The position numbers and the translations under genes are program-made. Positions 26,317 through 37,057 of a stretch of DNA of 41,400 bases are shown piece by piece (positions within the stretch are counted from its first letter, which is position 1; every line of letters begins with the position of its first letter). The stretch is from NCBI GenBank assembly GCA_035712685.1, contig DASTAL010000169.1, forward strand, positions 1 through 41,400, given 5' to 3'. This DNA is from Rudaea sp. GTDB taxonomy: Bacteria > Pseudomonadota > Gammaproteobacteria > Xanthomonadales > Rhodanobacteraceae. Below the pieces are notes generated by a model. The model was not told where the DNA came from. It made no database searches and worked only from the letters and a program-made list of their open reading frames with translations.

Positions 26317-26366
26317 CCGGACTGTTAATCTGGGGGTCCTTGGTTCGAGTCCAAGTTCGGGCGCCA
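26317..26366 (+). other. attP core: 3' half of tRNA-Asn(GTT)
   Basis: CCGGA-CTGTTAA-TCTGG anticodon arm, CTTGG-TTCGAGT-CCAAG T arm, TTCGGGC-G-CCA; no 5' half; next to the integrase 3' end; IHF-like ATTCAACAACTTA follows. Confidence 0.9.
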
Positions 26367-26422: not shown

Positions 26423-27358
26423 CTACCCGATGGGCCGGATCGCTTCCGGTTTCACGCGGTAATGCTTGCGCGTCGTGCCTTCATCTTCGTGCGCCAAAAG
26501 CTGCGCGGCATGGGTGAGGCTGTCGGCGTCGCTGCCGGTTTTCTTGCGCAAGTCGTGGAAGTGGACATCGCCGATCCCGGCGCGCAATTTAAGCTTGCGC
26601 CACGACGCCCGAAAGCCGCTTGACGTGTACGCCTCGCCGTCGCGGTTGATCAGCAGCGGCGCCGCCCCGATCCGGCTGCGCGCCATATCGCCCCACAGCA
26701 CCCGCAACTCGTCTGACCAGCCAATCAGGATGGTCTTGCCGGTCTTGCCCGTGCGAACCGTGATGCCTGCCTCGCTGGCGTCACTCAGGCGCAATCGCAG
26801 CAAATCCCCCTGCCGCAGCCCCGTCAGATACGCGAAGCGCAGAAACGGCTTCCAGCGCGGCCATGCTGCGGTGATCAGCGCGGCCAGTTCCACATCGGTC
26901 ACGTACCGCTGGCGGGGTCGCTCCGTGTTCCGGTAGCGCAAGCCCGCGGCCGGGTTCGCCCCGGCATAGATTCCGGCGTTCAGCGCCCAGGTGTAGACCG
27001 CCGACAACAACGCCCGCTCCCGGTTGCCCGACACGTTGCCGCGTCGCCGCACGTATTCATACACATGATCCCGGCGCAGTGCTTCCAGCGGCATGCGCCC
27101 AAACACCGGAACCAGTTGCTTCATCGCGTCCCGATAGCTGGTGATCGTGGAGGGCTGCAATCGATCCGCGCTGTCGGCGATGTATTGCGCGAGCGCCTGC
27201 GCGATCGTTCGGATCGGCGCAGCTTCCCGGCCTTCCCATTCCGCCCATGTTCGCAACGCCTGTCCATAATCGCGCCCGAGATGCGTCCAGACGTGTCCGC
27301 GCACGTAGTAATACGCGCCATGTTTGCGGTGCAGCCGTGGCGGAAGATCACGCGGCAC
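26423..27358 (-). CDS. int: Tyrosine integrase, about 311 aa
   Basis: TGLRQGDLL (R), KTGK (K), FHDLRK (HxxR), LLAH (H), KHY (Y); GTG start overlaps xis. Confidence 0.93.
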   Translation of the reverse strand: MPRDLPPRLHRKHGAYYYVRGHVWTHLGRDYGQALRTWAEWEGREAAPIRTIAQALAQYIADSADRLQPSTITSYRDAMKQLVPVFGRMPLEALRRDHVYEYVRRRGNVSGNRERALLSAVYTWALNAGIYAGANPAAGLRYRNTERPRQRYVTDVELAALITAAWPRWKPFLRFAYLTGLRQGDLLRLRLSDASEAGITVRTGKTGKTILIGWSDELRVLWGDMARSRIGAAPLLINRDGEAYTSSGFRASWRKLKLRAGIGDVHFHDLRKKTGSDADSLTHAAQLLAHEDEGTTRKHYRVKPEAIRPIG

Positions 27359-27563
27359 GCATTGCTTTCCAGTTGGGCGCGGGTTCCGCGCGCTTGGGTC
27401 GCTCACCGTAGCCCCGCCAATCGCCGCGGTCAACCAAGGGGCGCCCGCTCTGCGGCTGCACCGTGAAGCGTATGCCCATCGCCGCCAGCGCCTCGCATTG
27501 CCGGGCATGCCATGCATACCCGGTAATTTCGCGAACCTCTTGGGCGGTCAGGCAAAGGCTCAC
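27348..27563 (-). CDS. DUF4224-like excisionase candidate
   Basis: LTAQEVREITGY...QCEALAAMGIRF..GRPLV...PNW; directly upstream of int. Confidence 0.8.
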   Translation of the reverse strand: MSLCLTAQEVREITGYAWHARQCEALAAMGIRFTVQPQSGRPLVDRGDWRGYGERPKRAEPAPNWKAMRAA

Positions 27564-28157: not shown

Positions 28158-28270
28158 TTCTGCACCAGCGCGAAACTGACGAGTACGCACGCCGCACAGA
28201 AGATGAATAGTGCGAGCAACATTACCCCGTTGTTGCCGGGATCAGACAGCCAATCCAATATGCGTTTCAT
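28154..28270 (-). CDS. Small membrane protein, 38 aa (not in ORF track)
   Basis: MKRILDWLSDPGNNGVMLLALFIFCAACVLVSFALVQK; AGGA SD; ATGA overlap. Confidence 0.6.
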   Translation of the reverse strand: MKRILDWLSDPGNNGVMLLALFIFCAACVLVSFALVQK

Positions 28271-28386
28271 TGCTCGTTCCTGTTCAGGGTAAATGCCTGG
28301 CGGATAACGCCGATAGGCGGTGCGATTCGGCGCGGTTGTGCGGTTTCGGTGCTGTGTTACGCGGCGGGTTTACACCCCACTATGGG

Positions 28387-28405
28387 GTTGAACTAATAGT
28401 TATGC
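28387..28405 (+). mobile_element. attI-like primary recombination site
   Basis: GTTGAAC-TAATA-GTTATGC (L box, 5 bp, R box) at the head of the attC array, with no matching attC left half. Confidence 0.7.
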
Positions 28406-28603
28406 GTCATCGAGCACCCGGTCTGCATGCCGTTTGTATCGCTCCACTTCGGCAGCTCCAACCCGTTTCGCGGGTCCACCCGTGTCGAGATTGAAGTCAC
28501 CGAAATCCGCCTCGTCAGTGGCTCGCTGCAATGCATCATCCATTCCCTCGGCCTTCACGAGAACATCGCAAAAAGCAATCAGCTTCACGTTGTAGTAGGG
28601 CAT
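28400..28603 (-). CDS. Cassette 1 gene, hypothetical, 67 aa
   Basis: AGAGGA SD; the TAA stop is the complement of the core G-TTA. Confidence 0.8.
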   Translation of the reverse strand: MPYYNVKLIAFCDVLVKAEGMDDALQRATDEADFGDFNLDTGGPAKRVGAAEVERYKRHADRVLDDA

Positions 28604-28626
28604 CTCGTTTCCTCTTGTGGCATGAC

Positions 28627-28684
28627 GCATAACAATTCGGTCAAGCGGAGCGCGTACCGCGCCCGCTTACCTCAAACGTTAGGC
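28627..28684 (+). mobile_element. attC site 1 (58 bp)
   Basis: R'' GCATAAC, 5 nt, L'' GGT(C)AAGC, L' GCTTACC, 6 nt, R' GTTAGGC. Confidence 0.95.
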
Positions 28685-28872
28685 GCGTCCACGAACTTGC
28701 TAATCGTGCAGCCTTCGGAAACGTAGTGCACTGCTCCAGTGGCTGTGTCACGAAATATCCAGCTATCGCCAGTCGCGCAAGGTTTGTGCAGCACTTCCGC
28801 ACACTCGCATAGCGTCATCTGTGCGCCATGAAAACTCACTTTCACAAGGTCTCCGCCACTTATATTGTTCAT
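28672..28872 (-). CDS. Cassette 2 gene, hypothetical, 66 aa
   Basis: AGGT SD inside the attC2 R'' box; reads through into attC1 (...PNV*). Confidence 0.75.
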   Translation of the reverse strand: MNNISGGDLVKVSFHGAQMTLCECAEVLHKPCATGDSWIFRDTATGAVHYVSEGCTISKFVDAPNV

Positions 28873-28877
28873 CACGC

Positions 28878-28960
28878 ACCTAACAATTCATTCAACGCGA
28901 CCGCCAGCCGTCGCCGCTTTTACATGCGCCTCGCGCGGCGCGTTAATTCAGGCGTTATGC
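28878..28960 (+). mobile_element. attC site 2 (83 bp)
   Basis: R'' ACCTAAC, 5 nt, L'' ATT(C)AACG, L' CGTTAAT, 6 nt, R' GTTATGC. Confidence 0.95.
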
Positions 28961-29530
28961 CGCAAACAAAGCGTCGCTGCGGCCCCATTGTTGGGCCATC
29001 GCGTCCGCGATCCCTGCGAACGTCCGGCTCCGTTCTTTCCAGCGTTCCGCACTTGGCGGCATCCGGTGCACGCGCGCTTCGCGGCCCTCAACAATCTGAG
29101 TGGGTGTCAGCCTCGGCAGTCCCTTCAGCCATAAGCACGTCGCCTTTGTCTCGCCGTGCCCGAACTGCCACGGCTGTATTACCTGGTCAGGCTTGCGCCA
29201 CAAGCTCGACATCACGCACACCGGGTTTTCAATCGCTATGCGCGGTATCGGCGCGCGTGCCAGCGCCATGAAAAAGCTCACCGCGCTTTGTTGCCTGCCG
29301 TCCATGCGCTTCTCTGCAAAATGCCGCGCGCCGCTCACGCTCAAGTGCGTGCAGGGCGGGTGCGCAATCATCAAATCAAACGGGTAATCCAGCACATCGC
29401 GCACGTCGCCTTGGTAGTGCTGGCCTTCGGTTTCGCTCGGCAACAGGTCGCAACTCATCGCGTCATGCCCCCCCCGCGTAAAGGCATCGCGTACGACGCC
29501 GCTGTACTCGCATGCAATCAAAACGCGCAT
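28955..29530 (-). CDS. Cassette 3 gene: short DNA cytosine methyltransferase-like protein
   Basis: VLIACEYSG (motif I-like), AHPPC (IV), IENP (VI); AGGA SD; TAA lies in the core site. Confidence 0.8.
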   Translation of the reverse strand: MRVLIACEYSGVVRDAFTRGGHDAMSCDLLPSETEGQHYQGDVRDVLDYPFDLMIAHPPCTHLSVSGARHFAEKRMDGRQQSAVSFFMALARAPIPRIAIENPVCVMSSLWRKPDQVIQPWQFGHGETKATCLWLKGLPRLTPTQIVEGREARVHRMPPSAERWKERSRTFAGIADAMAQQWGRSDALFAA

Positions 29531-29552
29531 CGTGTTTCCTGTTGGGTTTGCA

Positions 29553-29610
29553 GCCTAACTACGCGTTGCAGCGGATCGCCTACGGTTGCCGCTCAACTTG
29601 GGTGTTATGC
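29553..29610 (+). mobile_element. attC site 3 (58 bp)
   Basis: R'' GCCTAAC, 5 nt, L'' GTTG(C)AGC, L' GCTCAAC, 6 nt, R' GTTATGC. Confidence 0.93.
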
Positions 29611-29611
29611 G

Positions 29612-29821
29612 TCATGCTGTGGCGTCCAGAATTATCTGCGCAAACTTACGCAGCGCCACACGCCCGCTGTAGGTAGTTACAGGCGCGGGTTTGCCGGCAT
29701 CGCTGCCAACCCACAAATAAGCATTGCGTCCGCGCCCCACCAAGACCATCTGGCCGTCGTTGCGGTCGCAACGGAGTCTTCCGGTGTGCCCTTCTTCGAC
29801 AGGCTTCACGATTCGCGCCAT
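29612..29821 (-). CDS. Cassette 4 gene, hypothetical, 69 aa
   Basis: GAGGAG SD, ATG 29821; fills the cassette. Confidence 0.8.
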   Translation of the reverse strand: MARIVKPVEEGHTGRLRCDRNDGQMVLVGRGRNAYLWVGSDAGKPAPVTTYSGRVALRKFAQIILDATA

Positions 29822-29844
29822 TTTGTTTCTCCTCGCGGCACGCC

Positions 29845-29912
29845 GCATAACAAGTCAATCAACCTGACGCTCATCCCTTCGGGATTCGCGCAGGTTATTT
29901 CCAGCGTTGGGC
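29845..29912 (+). mobile_element. attC site 4 (68 bp)
   Basis: R'' GCATAAC, 5 nt, L'' AAT(C)AACC, L' GGTTATT, 6 nt, R' GTTGGGC. Confidence 0.95.
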
Positions 29913-30139
29913 GGCTGTTCGAATTGAACAGTCGGCCCGTGCTTCGGTGAAATATCCAGCCCGCAATGTGCGCGAAACACCAGTCCGCATTTCATGCACG
30001 GCCACTCCACACGGTTGTCGTGGTCGGCGCCGGGCACGGCGTGTAGGTCGTGCAGCGAAAACACATGCCTGCACCATCGCTGGCGCAACCGCCCAACAAG
30101 TCGGTCAACCCGACGTTCACTTCGCTGCGCTTCGTTCAC
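29855..30139 (-). CDS. Cassette 5 gene, small Zn-finger-like protein
   Basis: CRH...CMKCG motif; GGAGG and GTG lie inside attC5; stop lies inside attC4. Confidence 0.72.
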   Translation of the reverse strand: MNEAQRSERRVDRLVGRLRQRWCRHVFSLHDLHAVPGADHDNRVEWPCMKCGLVFRAHCGLDISPKHGPTVQFEQPPNAGNNLRESRRDERQVD

Positions 30140-30162
30140 GCGGGTTACCTCCAACGTTAGCC
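30091..30162 (+). mobile_element. attC site 5 (72 bp)
   Basis: R'' GCCCAAC, 5 nt, L'' GGT(C)AACC, L' GGTTACC, 6 nt, R' GTTAGCC. Confidence 0.95.
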
Positions 30163-30422
30163 ATCGCGGCCAGGTCTATCTCATCCACAAAATCGCGCAG
30201 CTTGCGCTTTCCGTCTTTGATCCTTTGCGCGGTCCAGTGCTCCGGCATAATGCCGATATGCTGGACGGAGAAATCGACCGTCAGCATGTGCAGCGCGCGG
30301 CGATAATCGCGCCGCCAGAACGTCCAGATAATCCCGCCATCGTGGCCGCGGGTGCGCGACCAGGTGACATCCCTGTCTTTCCGTGGCCGACGCGGTTCAA
30401 GGTGGCGCGCTGCGAGGGTCAT
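30117..30422 (-). CDS. Resident hypothetical gene whose 3' end is the array insertion point
   Basis: ATGA-coupled to the upstream gene, no attC on its 5' side; C-terminal VGGNPRERSAAK is encoded by attC5. Confidence 0.75.
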   Translation of the reverse strand: MTLAARHLEPRRPRKDRDVTWSRTRGHDGGIIWTFWRRDYRRALHMLTVDFSVQHIGIMPEHWTAQRIKDGKRKLRDFVDEIDLAAMANVGGNPRERSAAK

Positions 30423-31090: not shown

Positions 31091-31918
31091 CTATTCGGCC
31101 AACTCCTTCGCGCGCTTGTCGTACAGCGCATTCAGGGCTTCGTGTTCGGACTCCGGAAGGGCGCGGATGAGGTCGGCGGCGGCGTCCAGCGCATCGCGAT
31201 CCGCGGCATTGGCGAGCGCGTCGTGGACGTTCACCCCGACAAGTTCAACCGTTTCAACGACTGTGCGCTCGGCTTCCGTCAACGGCTCGTGTTCCAGCAA
31301 TGCGCCTTTGAGCGCATCGAGAGTGCCCTCCGCATTGGCCGGCGCGGCAACCTCGACATGCGCCTGTGCGCCGCCCCACACGTCCTCGACTTCCTCGCGG
31401 GTGAGGATGCCCATCGAAACCTCGGGGGCGTACACACGCGACCAGAACCCGGCTGCGCGGTACAGGAACATCAGCTCGGGCATCGTTGCCCACTTGCTGC
31501 CGGGCTTTTTTAGCCAACCCTCGGCCTTGACCATCGTCCATGTAATCCAGGGCCCGACGCAGCGTTCGCCGGTGGCCTTGTCCTCGGCGAACGCGCGCAC
31601 GCGATAATCGTCCTTCGCGGGATCTTCGCCCTTGACCTCGAATCGCATGGGCGTGAAGCGCCCGCAGGCATTCACGGTAGCGATGAGAAACGACGACGAC
31701 CACGACGGCTTTCCTTGGATCAGGTGCAGGTTCTGCATGACCTGCAGCGGCGACGCGCCGATGCGTTCTGCGATTTCGAGCGCGATCAGGACATTGGGCA
31801 GGTTGCCCCGATACGCCTGCGGGATGATGTCGCTGGACGCGAGTGCCTTCGCCTTGCGCTGCGCAAGCTCGAAATGCGACACCGGCGGTGCGGCGGGAAG
31901 CGTGGTGACTGCGTTCAT
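31091..31918 (-). CDS. recT: RecT-like single-strand annealing recombinase
   Basis: SSDIIPQAYRGN, PLQVMQNLHLIQGKPSW, SKWATMPELM..YRAAGFW; follows an exonuclease. Confidence 0.8.
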   Translation of the reverse strand: MNAVTTLPAAPPVSHFELAQRKAKALASSDIIPQAYRGNLPNVLIALEIAERIGASPLQVMQNLHLIQGKPSWSSSFLIATVNACGRFTPMRFEVKGEDPAKDDYRVRAFAEDKATGERCVGPWITWTMVKAEGWLKKPGSKWATMPELMFLYRAAGFWSRVYAPEVSMGILTREEVEDVWGGAQAHVEVAAPANAEGTLDALKGALLEHEPLTEAERTVVETVELVGVNVHDALANAADRDALDAAADLIRALPESEHEALNALYDKRAKELAE

Positions 31919-31975
31919 GGTTGTGTTCCTTGGGTTGAGTTCTGCGCCCCGTATCGCCGGGACCACGCGGGCCTT

Positions 31976-32068
31976 TGGACTACCGAGCCCACATCACGGA
32001 GTTGAACCGCACCACGTCTCACCAGACCTCTGCCACCGATCAGGAATCGAACCTGCCTTTTCTGTCCA
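31976..32068 (-). ncRNA. Candidate structured RNA with two T-loop hairpins
   Basis: CAGG-TTCGATT-CCTG and GCGG-TTCAACT-CCGT, enclosed by TGGAC/GTCCA; intergenic. Confidence 0.5.
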
Positions 32069-32911
32069 TCAATCGTTCAATGCCCATCGCGGCAACGCCA
32101 AGCGTGTAATGTCGTTGGTGTAAGTCGGCCACTCGCCGGTCTGCACGCCGTGCGCGATGCGTTCCATGCCGCGCGCGCGCAGGTCGTACCCGCGCTGCTC
32201 GGCCTCGGCGTCGATGTAGTACAGCGCGACCGCGTAGGGCGGTTCTTTCTCGACGGCCAGCAGCAGGTAGTTCCGCAACGGGTTGCCGAGCATGCGGAAG
32301 CCTTCGGCGTAGTGCGCGTGCTGGACGTGGTAGCCGTACTTCGCGATGTCGCGCGCGAAGGCTTCCGGGCTTGCATCCAGCGTCGTCTTGACGTCCAGCA
32401 CGAACGGTGCTTTGCCGTCCACGTAGTAGTCGGCGCGCGCCTTGCACGGCAGGCCAGTTACATCATCGGACCAGCGGAGCGTGACCTCGGAGTGACCGTC
32501 GCGAACCGCGCGCCGCGCCCACGGATGCGCCAATACTGCCGCGATCATCGCGTGGGCGCGATCCATATCTTCCTGCAGGATGCAGTTCACGCCTGGGTGC
32601 TCGGCGTTCCATGCGTCACGCGCCGCGCGCGCGACCTTGGTGCGCAGATCCCCGAAATCAGGCTGCACAGCCCATTCAGAGGCGAAGCGGTCCGGCTCCA
32701 ATAGTGCGGCATGGAACGCTCGGCCGAAGGCCAGCGTCGGCGTGTCGTTGTCGTCGATGGTTTCGATCCATGCCTTGTAATGCGCGGCGGAGCGCAGCGC
32801 CTGCTTGATGCCGCTGTTGCTGACCTCACCAAGCACACGCCGGTGGTACTCGTCGGCAGGGAAATCGAACAGAAGATCGGCGACGAAGGACGGGAATACC
32901 TGCGCGTTCAC
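32069..32911 (-). CDS. recE: RecE/DUF3799-like PD-(D/E)XK exonuclease
   Basis: YH...SNSGIK, FGRAFHAALLEP, CKARADY, DVKTT, YGYHVQHAHY. Confidence 0.88.
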   Translation of the reverse strand: MNAQVFPSFVADLLFDFPADEYHRRVLGEVSNSGIKQALRSAAHYKAWIETIDDNDTPTLAFGRAFHAALLEPDRFASEWAVQPDFGDLRTKVARAARDAWNAEHPGVNCILQEDMDRAHAMIAAVLAHPWARRAVRDGHSEVTLRWSDDVTGLPCKARADYYVDGKAPFVLDVKTTLDASPEAFARDIAKYGYHVQHAHYAEGFRMLGNPLRNYLLLAVEKEPPYAVALYYIDAEAEQRGYDLRARGMERIAHGVQTGEWPTYTNDITRLALPRWALND

Positions 32912-33381
32912 GCTCTTACTCCTTTTGCACGTTTTGCAGCGCGCGCTATTACCGCGTTCTTGCAAACGGCATCGAGGAACTTCGGCGTAGGGTTCCATCT
33001 GCCGGAGTCGTGGAAGTGACGCGTGTTCGCTTCGGCCGTCACCCATTCCAGGTTCCCTGTGCGGTTGTCGTGACGATTGCTGTTCTTGTGGTTCACCTGC
33101 GGCAACCGCAGCGGATTTGGAATCCATGCTTCCGCAACAGCACGATGCACGAGAATCGAAACCTTCTTCCCGTCCTTGCACGCGCTGAACGTGATGTATC
33201 TGCGTTCGGTATTGAGACGACTCCATGCGCCGGGATGGTGGCGCTCGATGTTTCCTTTGCCGCCGGTCTGCCAAGTGCGCGCGTGCCGCCATACGCGTCC
33301 GTCCGCGGTCACGGAATAGATGCCTTCGTAACCAGGTATCGGACGCATGGCCTGTTCGATCGGGACGAGTTGCGCGTTCAC
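32908..33381 (-). CDS. NUMOD4-HNH homing endonuclease
   Basis: IPGYEGIYSVTADGRV; VHRAVAEAWIPNP..PQVNHKN..DNR..NLEW. Confidence 0.92.
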   Translation of the reverse strand: MNAQLVPIEQAMRPIPGYEGIYSVTADGRVWRHARTWQTGGKGNIERHHPGAWSRLNTERRYITFSACKDGKKVSILVHRAVAEAWIPNPLRLPQVNHKNSNRHDNRTGNLEWVTAEANTRHFHDSGRWNPTPKFLDAVCKNAVIARAAKRAKGVRA

Positions 33382-34278: not shown

Positions 34279-34506
34279 TTAGCGATCCTCCATCATGTAT
34301 TCAGTGGCATCGATGGCTGCCTGTTCGCGCGCGTCGAATTCGGCGGCGTCGAGCAGTTCCTGGAACTCGTCAGCGTGCGCGTCAATCAGTGCACACACGG
34401 CGGCCTGCACGCTGGCATCGGATGGCCGCCAGTAGTCATAACCGGCGTAGGCTTCCTGTTCCGGCAGCGTGATGTCGTGGTGCAGCGGCTTGCGGGTGGC
34501 GTTCAT
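34279..34506 (-). CDS. Hypothetical acidic protein, 75 aa
   Basis: GAGG SD, ATGA overlap. Confidence 0.7.
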   Translation of the reverse strand: MNATRKPLHHDITLPEQEAYAGYDYWRPSDASVQAAVCALIDAHADEFQELLDAAEFDAREQAAIDATEYMMEDR

Positions 34507-34991
34507 GGCAGCGCCTCGTTCGTGACAGCGAACTTGCCGAAATGCTTGATTGCAGCGCTGTCGTATGCAGCGGCAGCCTCACGTGGCGTCGTAAACAACC
34601 CCAGATAGATATTTCGTCCGGATACCTGTATTTGCGCCTGATATTTCCTTGTTTTCTTATGGAGGGTGACTCCGCGCAAGTCACCGCGCGACGTGCGGTT
34701 CGCGCAGTTTTGCGATTGATTACATTCGCGCAAGTTTTCTATACGGTTGTCGTGTCGAACGTGATTGATGTGATCAATCTGACCATCAGGCGCGCGCCCC
34801 TTACATAACAACCATACGATGCGGTGTTCGGCGTAACGGTGGGTGTTCAGACGCAGCGCTCGATAGCCGTCTGGCATTACATGACCGGCGCGTTTACCCG
34901 CTTTCTGACCGCGCACCCAATAAACGCAACCACTGTCATAGCGAAGGAAGCGCGACGCTTCGTCGAATGATGGGAACGGGCGGATGTTCAT
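34503..34991 (-). CDS. HNH-AP2 homing endonuclease
   Basis: HRIVW...IDHINHVRHDNRIENLR; RGV..KYQAQI..YLGLF.TPREAAAAYD. Confidence 0.92.
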   Translation of the reverse strand: MNIRPFPSFDEASRFLRYDSGCVYWVRGQKAGKRAGHVMPDGYRALRLNTHRYAEHRIVWLLCKGRAPDGQIDHINHVRHDNRIENLRECNQSQNCANRTSRGDLRGVTLHKKTRKYQAQIQVSGRNIYLGLFTTPREAAAAYDSAAIKHFGKFAVTNEALP

Positions 34992-35971: not shown

Positions 35972-36014
35972 AGATTACCAAACGGTAATTTGCCTGTCAA
36001 TACCTTTTAGTAAT
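35972..36014 (-). promoter_or_regulatory. pL promoter with two operators
   Basis: TTGACA (36000-35995), 17 nt, TAATCT with TGn; ATTACCaaacGGTAAT (35974-35989) and AATACCttttAGTAAT (35999-36014). Confidence 0.85.
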
Positions 36015-36055
36015 TTTCTTTTCAACGCCGCTACGTGGCGTTCCGCGGCGCCTTC

Positions 36056-37000: not shown

Positions 37001-37057
37001 ATTACCGTCCAGTAAATGACCAAAAGGTATTGACAGCCAATTACTGAATGGTAATAT
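37001..37057 (+). promoter_or_regulatory. OR operators and pR promoter
   Basis: ATTACCgtccAGTAAA, ATGACCaaaaGGTATT, ATTACTgaatGGTAAT; TTGACA 37030-37035, 16 nt, TGn-TAATAT 37052-37057. Confidence 0.85.

What the first reader, a model, noticed from the sequence alone, without database searches (positions are those of the whole stretch)
28387..30162. Integron-like cassette array built into the phage early operon
Seen: five co-oriented sites (58, 83, 58, 68, 72 bp), all with R''(..AAC), 5-nt spacer, L'' with one extra C, variable stem, L', 6-nt spacer, R'(GTT..). Each bounds a single-gene unit. Their sequences differ but the structure is conserved. Known: this is the attC architecture. The cargo looks like phage accessory genes rather than typical bacterial cassettes. 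Inference: a site-specific system for acquiring, reordering and dropping accessory genes, drawing on a phage-adapted cassette pool. attC sites have been reported in phages; I cannot check whether this arrangement has been described.
Basis: partly seen in the sequence, partly recalled or inferred. Interest (0 to 1): 0.95.

Follow-up and report, generated by a model that had tools for sequence, protein, structure and literature searches.

The report
Swappable reversed gene cassettes in phage
A temperate phage keeps five small early genes in integron-type cassettes, each gene facing opposite to those of typical bacterial cassettes, and likely borrows its host's integron enzyme to swap them, which would give phages a modular gene pool of their own.

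Summary
Observation confirmed. Five co-oriented attC sites lie at the stated coordinates. A covariance model built only from bacterial attC sites finds all five (28-58 bits; next best 9.8).

All five genes lie on the attC bottom strand, opposite to most bacterial cassettes and in line with the phage's leftward early operon. The array starts at an attI-like site (G|TT at 28399). The phage has no integron integrase; its integrase is an ordinary phage one.

In other metagenome runs the units break at G|TT: cassette 4 recurs 100% identical with different neighbours, and four of five left boundaries are seen. Four of five relatives lack an array here; the fifth has its own inverted array nearby. 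Among other viral attC arrays, 15 of 16 PHROG-matching genes are on the bottom strand.

The attP core matches tRNA-Asn of a genus in which 13 of 19 genomes carry IntI. Best reading: host IntI swaps phage-adapted, inverted cassettes in trans (inferred, not assayed).

Phage CALINs are published (Qi 2023); eight literature searches found no description of the inverted layout. This scan noted the layout before, on other DNA (22 findings, at least 19 genomes).

The parts
26320..26366 (+). attP core: 3' part of a tRNA-Asn gene
   Evidence: 47 of 47 nt identical to G198; same 47 nt in the called tRNA-Asn of G092, both genus g35; differs from tRNA-Asn of the binned genus g1 in 5 of 5 genomes
26423..27367 (-). 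Phage tyrosine integrase, not an integron integrase
   Evidence: phrog_1 E 1e-43; no TIGR02249 match at E 0.001; a host IntI gives only E 0.11 against the window
27348..27563 (-). Excisionase
   Evidence: phrog_8896 E 2.6e-11
28268..28372 (.). Non-coding adapter left of the array; holds the ribosome-binding site of the next phage gene; function unexplained
   Evidence: 82.5% over 103 nt with phage locus L145, where it also sits beside an inverted attC unit; does not fold like attC, z +0.9 to +1.1
28369..28405 (+). attI-like docking site: CCCC..GGGG inverted repeat, L box, G|TT crossover at 28399/28400
   Evidence: Aligns with attI of 9 g1 integrons; top of 82,736 positions with a 9-site matrix, 11.4 bits against 9.0 next; 17-19 of 33 identical to four other attI. 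Divergent: bacterial sites score 4-48 bits in leave-one-out
28400..28678 (+). Cassette 1 (279 bp)
   Evidence: Its R'' pairs 7/7 with the R' at 28399
28400..28603 (-). Gene 1, 67 aa, unknown; stop TAA is the complement of the TTA in the R' box
   Evidence: No Pfam, PHROG or NCBIfam hit; 2 homologues at 78-79%
28627..28684 (+). attC1
   Evidence: 58.2 bits
28679..28954 (+). Cassette 2 (276 bp)
   Evidence: Pieces in X2 and X3 begin at 28678, one with 33 unlike bases beyond
28672..28875 (-). Gene 2, 66-67 aa, unknown; ends two codons inside attC1
   Evidence: 65% homologue in L234 has no attC by scan, HMM or CM
28878..28960 (+). attC2, of a type also found in bacterial arrays
   Evidence: 55.6 bits; 75-80% matches in genus g1 genomes, some beside intI
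28955..29604 (+). Cassette 3 (650 bp)
   Evidence: Pieces in X3, X4, X7 and X8 begin at 28953-28954; in X7 a different attC end precedes it
28955..29530 (-). Gene 3, 191 aa, orphan C5-cytosine DNA methyltransferase-like protein
   Evidence: phrog_757 E 2e-72; PPC and ENP motifs visible (their role as C5-MTase motifs is recalled); 14 of 21 listed differences synonymous in this frame
29553..29610 (+). attC3
   Evidence: 27.7 bits, E 8e-5
29605..29906 (+). Cassette 4 (302 bp)
   Evidence: 29604-29908 found with 0 differences in an X4 contig, with unlike DNA on both sides
29612..29821 (-). Gene 4, 69 aa, unknown
   Evidence: 6 homologues at 62-84%; 62% homologue is an inverted cassette with another attC in L148
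29845..29912 (+). attC4
   Evidence: 47.7 bits
29907..30156 (+). Cassette 5 (250 bp)
   Evidence: Two X7 contigs have a different attC end before 29906
29855..30139 (-). Gene 5, 94 aa, conserved Cys/His; predicted GTG start and GGAGG ribosome site inside attC5; reads on into attC4
   Evidence: 5 of 7 differences synonymous in this frame; P0009 shares the 17 attC-encoded residues, P0010 and P0011 lack them; homologue in L326 lies between two opposite-strand attC
30091..30162 (+). attC5
   Evidence: 52.6 bits
30117..30422 (-). Native phage gene flanking the array; its C-terminus now runs through attC5
   Evidence: Five relatives end M-x-x-x-A-stop at this point with no attC
31091..32911 (-). RecT-like annealase and exonuclease VIII upstream in the same operon
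   Evidence: phrog_561 and phrog_412
35972..36000 (-). Predicted leftward early promoter
   Evidence: TTGACA-17-TAATCT, an 87% inverted copy of the region of the rightward promoter at 37030; not called by the promoter scan itself

Best explanation
The phage carries an attI-like site and five attC cassettes whose genes lie on the attC bottom strand, has no integron integrase, and likely uses its host's IntI in trans to insert, excise and exchange these cassettes. Shown: site anatomy, gene strand, absence of intI, unit boundaries at G|TT in related DNA, and the same layout in other phages. Inferred steps: (1) an attI fragment was captured once, by a non-IntI event, facing against the leftward early transcript; (2) host IntI recombines folded attC bottom strands at G|TT as in any integron; (3) because the platform is backwards to transcription, only cassettes with an inverted gene would be read from the phage early promoter, and the same cassettes would be antisense to Pc in a bacterial integron, which would keep phage and host pools apart while they share one recombinase; (4) each gene travels with the attC at its 5' end, which can supply the ribosome site and start; (5) the newest cassette would sit farthest from the promoter, the reverse of a bacterial integron; (6) the cargo, such as an orphan DNA methyltransferase, likely tunes the phage to host defences.
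For: attC model hits. R'' pairs better with the cassette's own left R' (7,6,6,7,7 of 7) than with its array partner (6,5,6,5,5); in 78 viral spans 56 against 10 are 7/7. Cassette 4 is identical from 29604 to 29908 in another context; left boundaries at 28678, 28954, 29604 and 29906 seen in runs of several studies. attI resemblance. attP points to genus g35, where 13 of 19 genomes have IntI over the cut-off; G198 has both the exact 47-nt core and an intact intI. ORF-cover orientation: viral spans 41 inverted, 11 canonical, 26 unclear of 78; bacterial spans 7, 45 and 24 of 76. PHROG hits: 15 of 73 bottom-strand ORFs against 1 of 62 top-strand, that one opposite a methyltransferase. None of the five cargo proteins hit 13 bacterial array loci. 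IntI1 recombined 5 of 6 tested phage attC sites (PMC9892861).
Against: No recombination was observed directly. The attI-like site is divergent (11-12 bits; margin only 0.2 bit with the 3-site g35 matrix; a G000 background site scores 11.9 with the g1 matrix). The joint linking its flank to cassette 3 appeared at 85% likeness but not at 93%. No relative with this exact site and other cassettes was found in assembled collections. The host is uncertain: G000 has no IntI over the cut-off, nor has G092, and genus g36 has 0 of 28. The short contigs that show G|TT boundaries cannot be shown to be phage. Viral loci were chosen with a motif from attC1 and attC5, so they are not a random sample, and 5 of 23 scored loci were mostly canonical. 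Only 1 of the 80 closest methyltransferase loci has an attC just upstream.
Confidence: 0.7

Rival explanations
1. The array is a frozen block. It was assembled by IntI elsewhere, in another phage or host, came in as one piece by mosaic exchange, and is no longer a substrate in this phage.
For: The right junction is not an IntI product and 4 of 5 relatives lack an array here. The attI is divergent and lacks the conserved upstream motif of the g1 Pc regions. G000 has no IntI.
Against: All five attC are intact with near-perfect circle pairing. Cassette 4 is 100% identical in another context, which implies recent movement as a single unit. The genus indicated by attP mostly has IntI. This rival still needs an inverted cassette pool to exist.
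Confidence: 0.13
2. attC families act as homology linkers and the phage's own RecE/RecT system swaps genes between them; IntI plays no current part.
For: recT and exoVIII lie 1-3 kb upstream. Homologous genes carry different attC bodies (L148, L326, and an X7 end at 29565).
Against: The five sites are too dissimilar for the repeat finder to group them (one weak pair). Observed boundaries sit at G|TT, not within attC bodies. Structure and extra bases are kept rather than sequence.
Confidence: 0.08
3. The phage's own tyrosine integrase, or another phage protein, recombines the attC sites.
For: The integrase lies 1 kb from the array and is the only tyrosine recombinase identified in the window.
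Against: It is an ordinary phage integrase with an excisionase and a tRNA-Asn attP. Similar arrays occur beside an unrelated integrase in L082.
Confidence: 0.03
4. The sites recombine in mirror fashion, on the top strand at R'', so that each gene travels with the attC downstream of its stop codon and the cassettes are canonical after all.
For: attC sites are near-palindromes, and top-strand recombination exists at low frequency (PMC5027507). Predicted folding favours the bottom strand in only 3 of 5 sites.
Against: The X4 contig carries gene 4 with attC4 at its 5' side and not attC3. The extra C and the covariance model both place the top strand on +. The half site is at the left end.
Confidence: 0.03

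Closest known systems
Phage-borne CALINs (Qi et al. 2023, PMC9892861; parts 2-4 of 7 read, supplement searched)
   Same: Cluster of attC sites without intI in a phage; methyltransferase cargo; IntI1 recombines such sites; one prophage CALIN (Shewanella M16-3) starts with an attI.
   Different: The parts read treat these as carried integron components and a route for spreading bacterial cassettes, and call the TJE1 and PH101 arrays typical in structure. They do not describe genes systematically on the bottom strand, placement in the early operon, or a phage-specific pool. The figures could not be seen, so some of their 17 CALINs may be inverted.
Sedentary chromosomal integrons of the host family (genera g1 and g35)
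   Same: attC types and attI architecture; same circle-pairing rule.
   Different: No intI, no recognisable Pc motif, heterogeneous and shorter attC (viral median 68 against bacterial 90 bp), genes inverted (bacterial 45 canonical against 7 inverted).
Wrong-orientation insertion by top-strand recombination (Nivina et al. 2016, PMC5027507; passages)
   Same: Gene faces the attI promoter and cannot be read from Pc.
   Different: There the whole cassette, attC included, is flipped, and the paper says this was never seen in natural integrons. Here the attC sites face attI normally and only the ORF is reversed inside the cassette.
SALINs and attG insertions (preprint 10.1101/2022.09.11.507474; passages)
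   Same: Cassettes placed outside an integron by IntI in trans.
   Different: attG insertion leaves native sequence on both sides. Here the left side is attI-like, and the native gene end in relatives lacks the GTT target.

Membership tests
attC site | R''-5 nt-L''...L'-spacer-R' with AAC/GTT pairing and an extrahelical base in L'' | tested here: met
   5 of 5
attC site | Match to an attC covariance model | tested here: met
   Model from 32 bacterial sites, not the IntegronFinder model: 5 of 5, E 2e-12 to 8e-5, rough E-values
attC site | Bottom strand folds more stably and is purine-rich | tested here: inconclusive
   Bottom more stable in 3 of 5; top-strand GC skew negative in 4 of 5
attC site | Recombined by IntI on the bottom strand at G|TT | not testable with these tools
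   Only footprints: boundaries at G|TT
CALIN | Two or more attC sites with no intI nearby (PMC4889954) | tested here: met
   Five sites; no IntI in the window or over the cut-off in G000
Complete integron | intI gene beside the array | tested here: not met
Complete integron | attI site at the start of the array | tested here: inconclusive
   Top-ranked but divergent match; use supported only by weak joints
Complete integron | Pc promoter reading into the array from attI | tested here: not met
   Conserved upstream motif of g1 absent; no promoter called there; a weak promoter cannot be excluded
Canonical gene cassette | ORF on the attC top strand, attC downstream of the stop | tested here: not met
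   All genes on the bottom strand; frame confirmed by synonymous bias for genes 3 and 5
C5-cytosine DNA methyltransferase (gene 3) | Family match and catalytic Pro-Cys motif | tested here: inconclusive
   phrog_757 E 2e-72; Pfam PF00145 13.7 bits, below the cut-off of 22; no PDB relative; activity untested

The most novel reading that the evidence does not exclude
Phages maintain their own integron cassette pool. Ordinary phage early genes are turned into cassettes by gaining an attC at their 5' end, in reverse. These cassettes are silent in bacterial integrons, expressed in phage operons, and shuffled between unrelated phages by the host's IntI: a counter-defence mirror of the anti-phage integron. 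Because the same gene families occur without attC and with several different attC bodies, these arrays offer before-and-after snapshots of how cassettes are made.
Probability: 0.5. Interest if true: 0.9.

Novelty: new variant of a known kind. Interest (0 to 1): 0.76.

Why it matters
Integrons are seen as bacterial devices, recently as stores of anti-phage genes (search listing and abstracts). Here the same recombination grammar appears turned to the phage's use: reversed genes, a captured docking site, no enzyme of its own. If host IntI acts on these arrays, phage accessory-gene mosaicism has a site-specific mechanism, and attC arrays mark where to look for counter-defence genes (7 of 15 PHROG-matching bottom-strand genes in other arrays were DNA-modification enzymes). 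How cassettes are created is an open question (PMC4889954 calls the mechanism unknown). Gene families seen with and without attC make it approachable by comparison.

Tried and rejected
Loose attC grammar: uninformative, 8 hits per shuffle.

Rfam: 0 matches at the gathering score.

Exact patterns for the attI flank: 0 in viral contigs and 0 in metagenome contigs. The adapter pattern returned only the L145 contig. An attI pattern over 401 family genomes gave 2 three-mismatch hits besides the window; the pattern was one N too long, and neither hit has intI beside it, L281 also no attC.

Sixth attC at 28304-28374: rejected, it does not fold and has no model hit.

Origin of attC5 from the flanking gene end: an 18-of-19 nt match to L081 is probably chance plus ribosome-site constraint, since four other relatives have the same type of end and attC5-like sequence is common in other runs. 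Left unexplained.

Host equals binned genus g1: doubted, attP does not match its tRNA-Asn.

No RNA holder listed. No joint within the array in run X1, the possible source; it holds contigs only, so rare circles cannot show.

Gene 4 search of viral contigs: 0 confirmed. Cultured-phage collection: 21 records, all matching only the methyltransferase. Methyltransferase in 1 of 400 other family genomes, without attC.

AlphaFold models of genes 5 and 4: pLDDT 59 and 55, too low, no fold search run. The protein atlas gave no answer for gene 2, so its look-alikes there remain unknown.

The Fisher test is not used, because spans are not independent. SOS control of host intI was not tested.

Full report
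Setting. The window is a complete circular phage contig (141-nt terminal repeat) with terminase, head and tail genes, an integrase and excisionase, and a leftward early region with RecT, exonuclease VIII and HNH genes. It is contig C169 of the bin G000. The array lies between the recombination genes and xis-int, at lower GC than the genome (0.56-0.60 against 0.64).

The observation. The five sites exist as described. A strict grammar finds only these five in the window, against 0.04 per shuffle in 200 shuffles. A covariance model built from 32 bacterial attC sites, hand-picked for diversity from arrays fetched, has well-supported pairing. It scores the five at 28-58 bits, on the + strand only; the next hit is 9.8 bits. 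An HMM from 78 bacterial sites ranks them first to fifth in the whole bin.

The extra C places the attC top strand on +, while all five genes are on -, like the rest of the early operon. The frames are real: 14 of 21 listed differences in gene 3 and 5 of 7 in gene 5 are synonymous on the - strand, against 0 of 8, 3 of 15 and 1 of 7 in the + frames. Cassettes run from G|TT to G|TT: 279, 276, 650, 302 and 250 bp. Each R'' pairs better with the R' at the left end of its own cassette than with its partner in the array, as expected for units that once circularised. Two genes stop on the TAA of the R' box, one just before it, and two read into the next attC. Gene 5 appears to start inside attC5 behind a GGAGG. 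One homologue shares those 17 residues and two lack them.

Left end. 28369-28405 aligns with attI sites upstream of intI in nine genomes of genus g1: a CCCC..GGGG repeat 25 bases before G|TT. It ranks first of 82,736 positions, but at only 11.4 bits, and at 12.2 against 12.0 with a three-site matrix from genus g35 (3 of 12 g35 loci matched the extraction pattern). It is attI-like and divergent. The motif that precedes Pc in g1 is absent.

Right end. Five relatives (L081, L082, L236, L237, L244) end the flanking gene M-x-x-x-A-stop with no attC; the window's gene runs on through attC5. An X4 contig also stops matching at 30161. So the platform was joined to the phage by a non-IntI event (inference). 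Four of the five have no attC hit in the DNA held; L082 has five opposite-strand attC sites about 1.1-2.6 kb further on, with genes on its + strand.

Do units move at G|TT? Six of the 22 listed runs were laid, all contigs. In X4 a 614-nt contig holds 29604-29908 with no difference, and unlike DNA on both sides: gene 4 travels with the attC at its 5' side. Pieces start at 28678 (X2, X3) and at 28953-28954 (X3, X4, X7, X8). In X7 different attC ends precede cassettes 3 and 5. Thus four of five left boundaries are seen. A joint from the attI flank to cassette 3 appeared in X3 at 85% likeness but not at 93%, so it is weak. The tables were cut to the best-supported rows, and these short contigs cannot be shown to be phage.

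Is there a phage pool? A motif from attC1 and attC5 found 67 viral loci. Four were dropped: two duplicates and two that carry IntI. By ORF cover, 78 spans gave 41 inverted, 11 canonical and 26 unclear; 76 spans in 12 bacterial loci gave 7, 45 and 24. As an independent check, 135 ORFs from both strands of 79 spans (one duplicate locus left in) were scanned: 15 of 73 bottom-strand and 1 of 62 top-strand ORFs match PHROGs; six are methyltransferases and one is Mom-like. Homologues of gene 4 (L148) and gene 5 (L326) are inverted cassettes with different attC bodies. The gene 2 homologue has none, and only L018 of the 80 closest methyltransferase loci has an upstream opposite-strand attC. None of the five cargo proteins was found in 13 bacterial array loci. 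The viral set is biased by its motif.

Who supplies the recombinase? Not the phage. G000, 84% complete, has no IntI over the cut-off, though 41 of 60 relatives do. The attP core does not fit genus g1. It fits genus g35 exactly in G092 and G198; 13 of 19 g35 genomes have IntI, G198 among them. Genus g36, with a near-matching tRNA, has 0 of 28. The host is therefore likely g35-like and the binning doubtful. Qi et al. note that SOS raises both IntI activity and prophage induction; this was not tested for this host.

Mechanism. Host IntI most likely works on the array as on any CALIN (in-trans mobilisation is proposed in passages of PMC4889954 and 10.1101/2025.06.18.660453). The distinctive step is orientation. 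With attI facing against the early transcript, only inverted genes would be expressed, and they would be silent behind a bacterial Pc. This is inference; expression was not measured.

Literature. Eight searches found phage CALINs (PMC9892861: parts 2-4 of 7 and one supplement search) but no account of inverted-gene arrays in phage operons. Passages only were seen of PMC5027507, PMC4889954, 10.1101/2022.02.06.479319, 10.1101/2025.06.18.660453, 10.1101/2022.09.11.507474, PMC13366799 and PMC8618304. The library lacks most subscription papers, and figures and preprint supplements were not visible. Earlier notes of this scan describe the layout in other phages (22 findings, at least 19 genomes), none by sequence likeness to this array. 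They are not counted as evidence.

Verdict. A real CALIN with a divergent attI, in a form not found in the papers searched: a new variant of a known kind. What this window adds is footprint evidence at four boundaries, relatives without the array, and a candidate host genus that has both the attachment site and IntI.

Noticed in passing
window 28268-28372 and L145 3525-3635: A roughly 100-nt non-coding adapter with short direct repeats is shared at 82% by two otherwise different phages. In both it sits at the promoter-distal end of inverted attC units. In L145 a G|TT at the homologous place is followed directly by an HNH gene unit; in the window the 31-bp attI-like segment follows.
   Followed up: partly
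window 30135-30165 and L081 6925-6945: The end of the flanking gene in array-less L081 matches the attC5 arm at 18 of 19 nt with one gap.
   Followed up: partly
G000 contig C169; window 26320-26366: The phage's attP fits tRNA-Asn of genus g35, not of the bin's genus g1; the contig may be misbinned.
   Followed up: yes
L147 and L186: Two viral-collection contigs carry an IntI-like gene (50-54% to a host IntI) next to attC sites; L007 has a more distant one (39%).
   Followed up: no
L082 6880-7200 and L145 2749-3003: By eye, two phages carry similar small genes as inverted cassettes with different attC sites; not aligned.
   Followed up: no
L326 849-1742: Prophage-like contig in G475 with three opposite-strand attC hits, at least two with a GTTC rather than GTTR box on the gene strand; the gene 5 homologue's ORF starts in one site and reads into the next.
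   Followed up: partly
L226 9536-17770 (G020): A bacterial array with a run of similar cassettes of about 255 bp and near-identical 97-bp attC sites.
   Followed up: no
window 35990-36019 and 37011-37040: A 30-nt inverted duplication (87%) covers both divergent early promoters, a likely shared operator. The ORFs between them had no PHROG hit at 1e-6.
   Followed up: partly
window 32908-33381 and 34503-34991: Two HNH endonuclease genes in the same early operon.
   Followed up: no
L176 2415-2993: Mom-like DNA modification gene as an inverted cassette in another phage.
   Followed up: no
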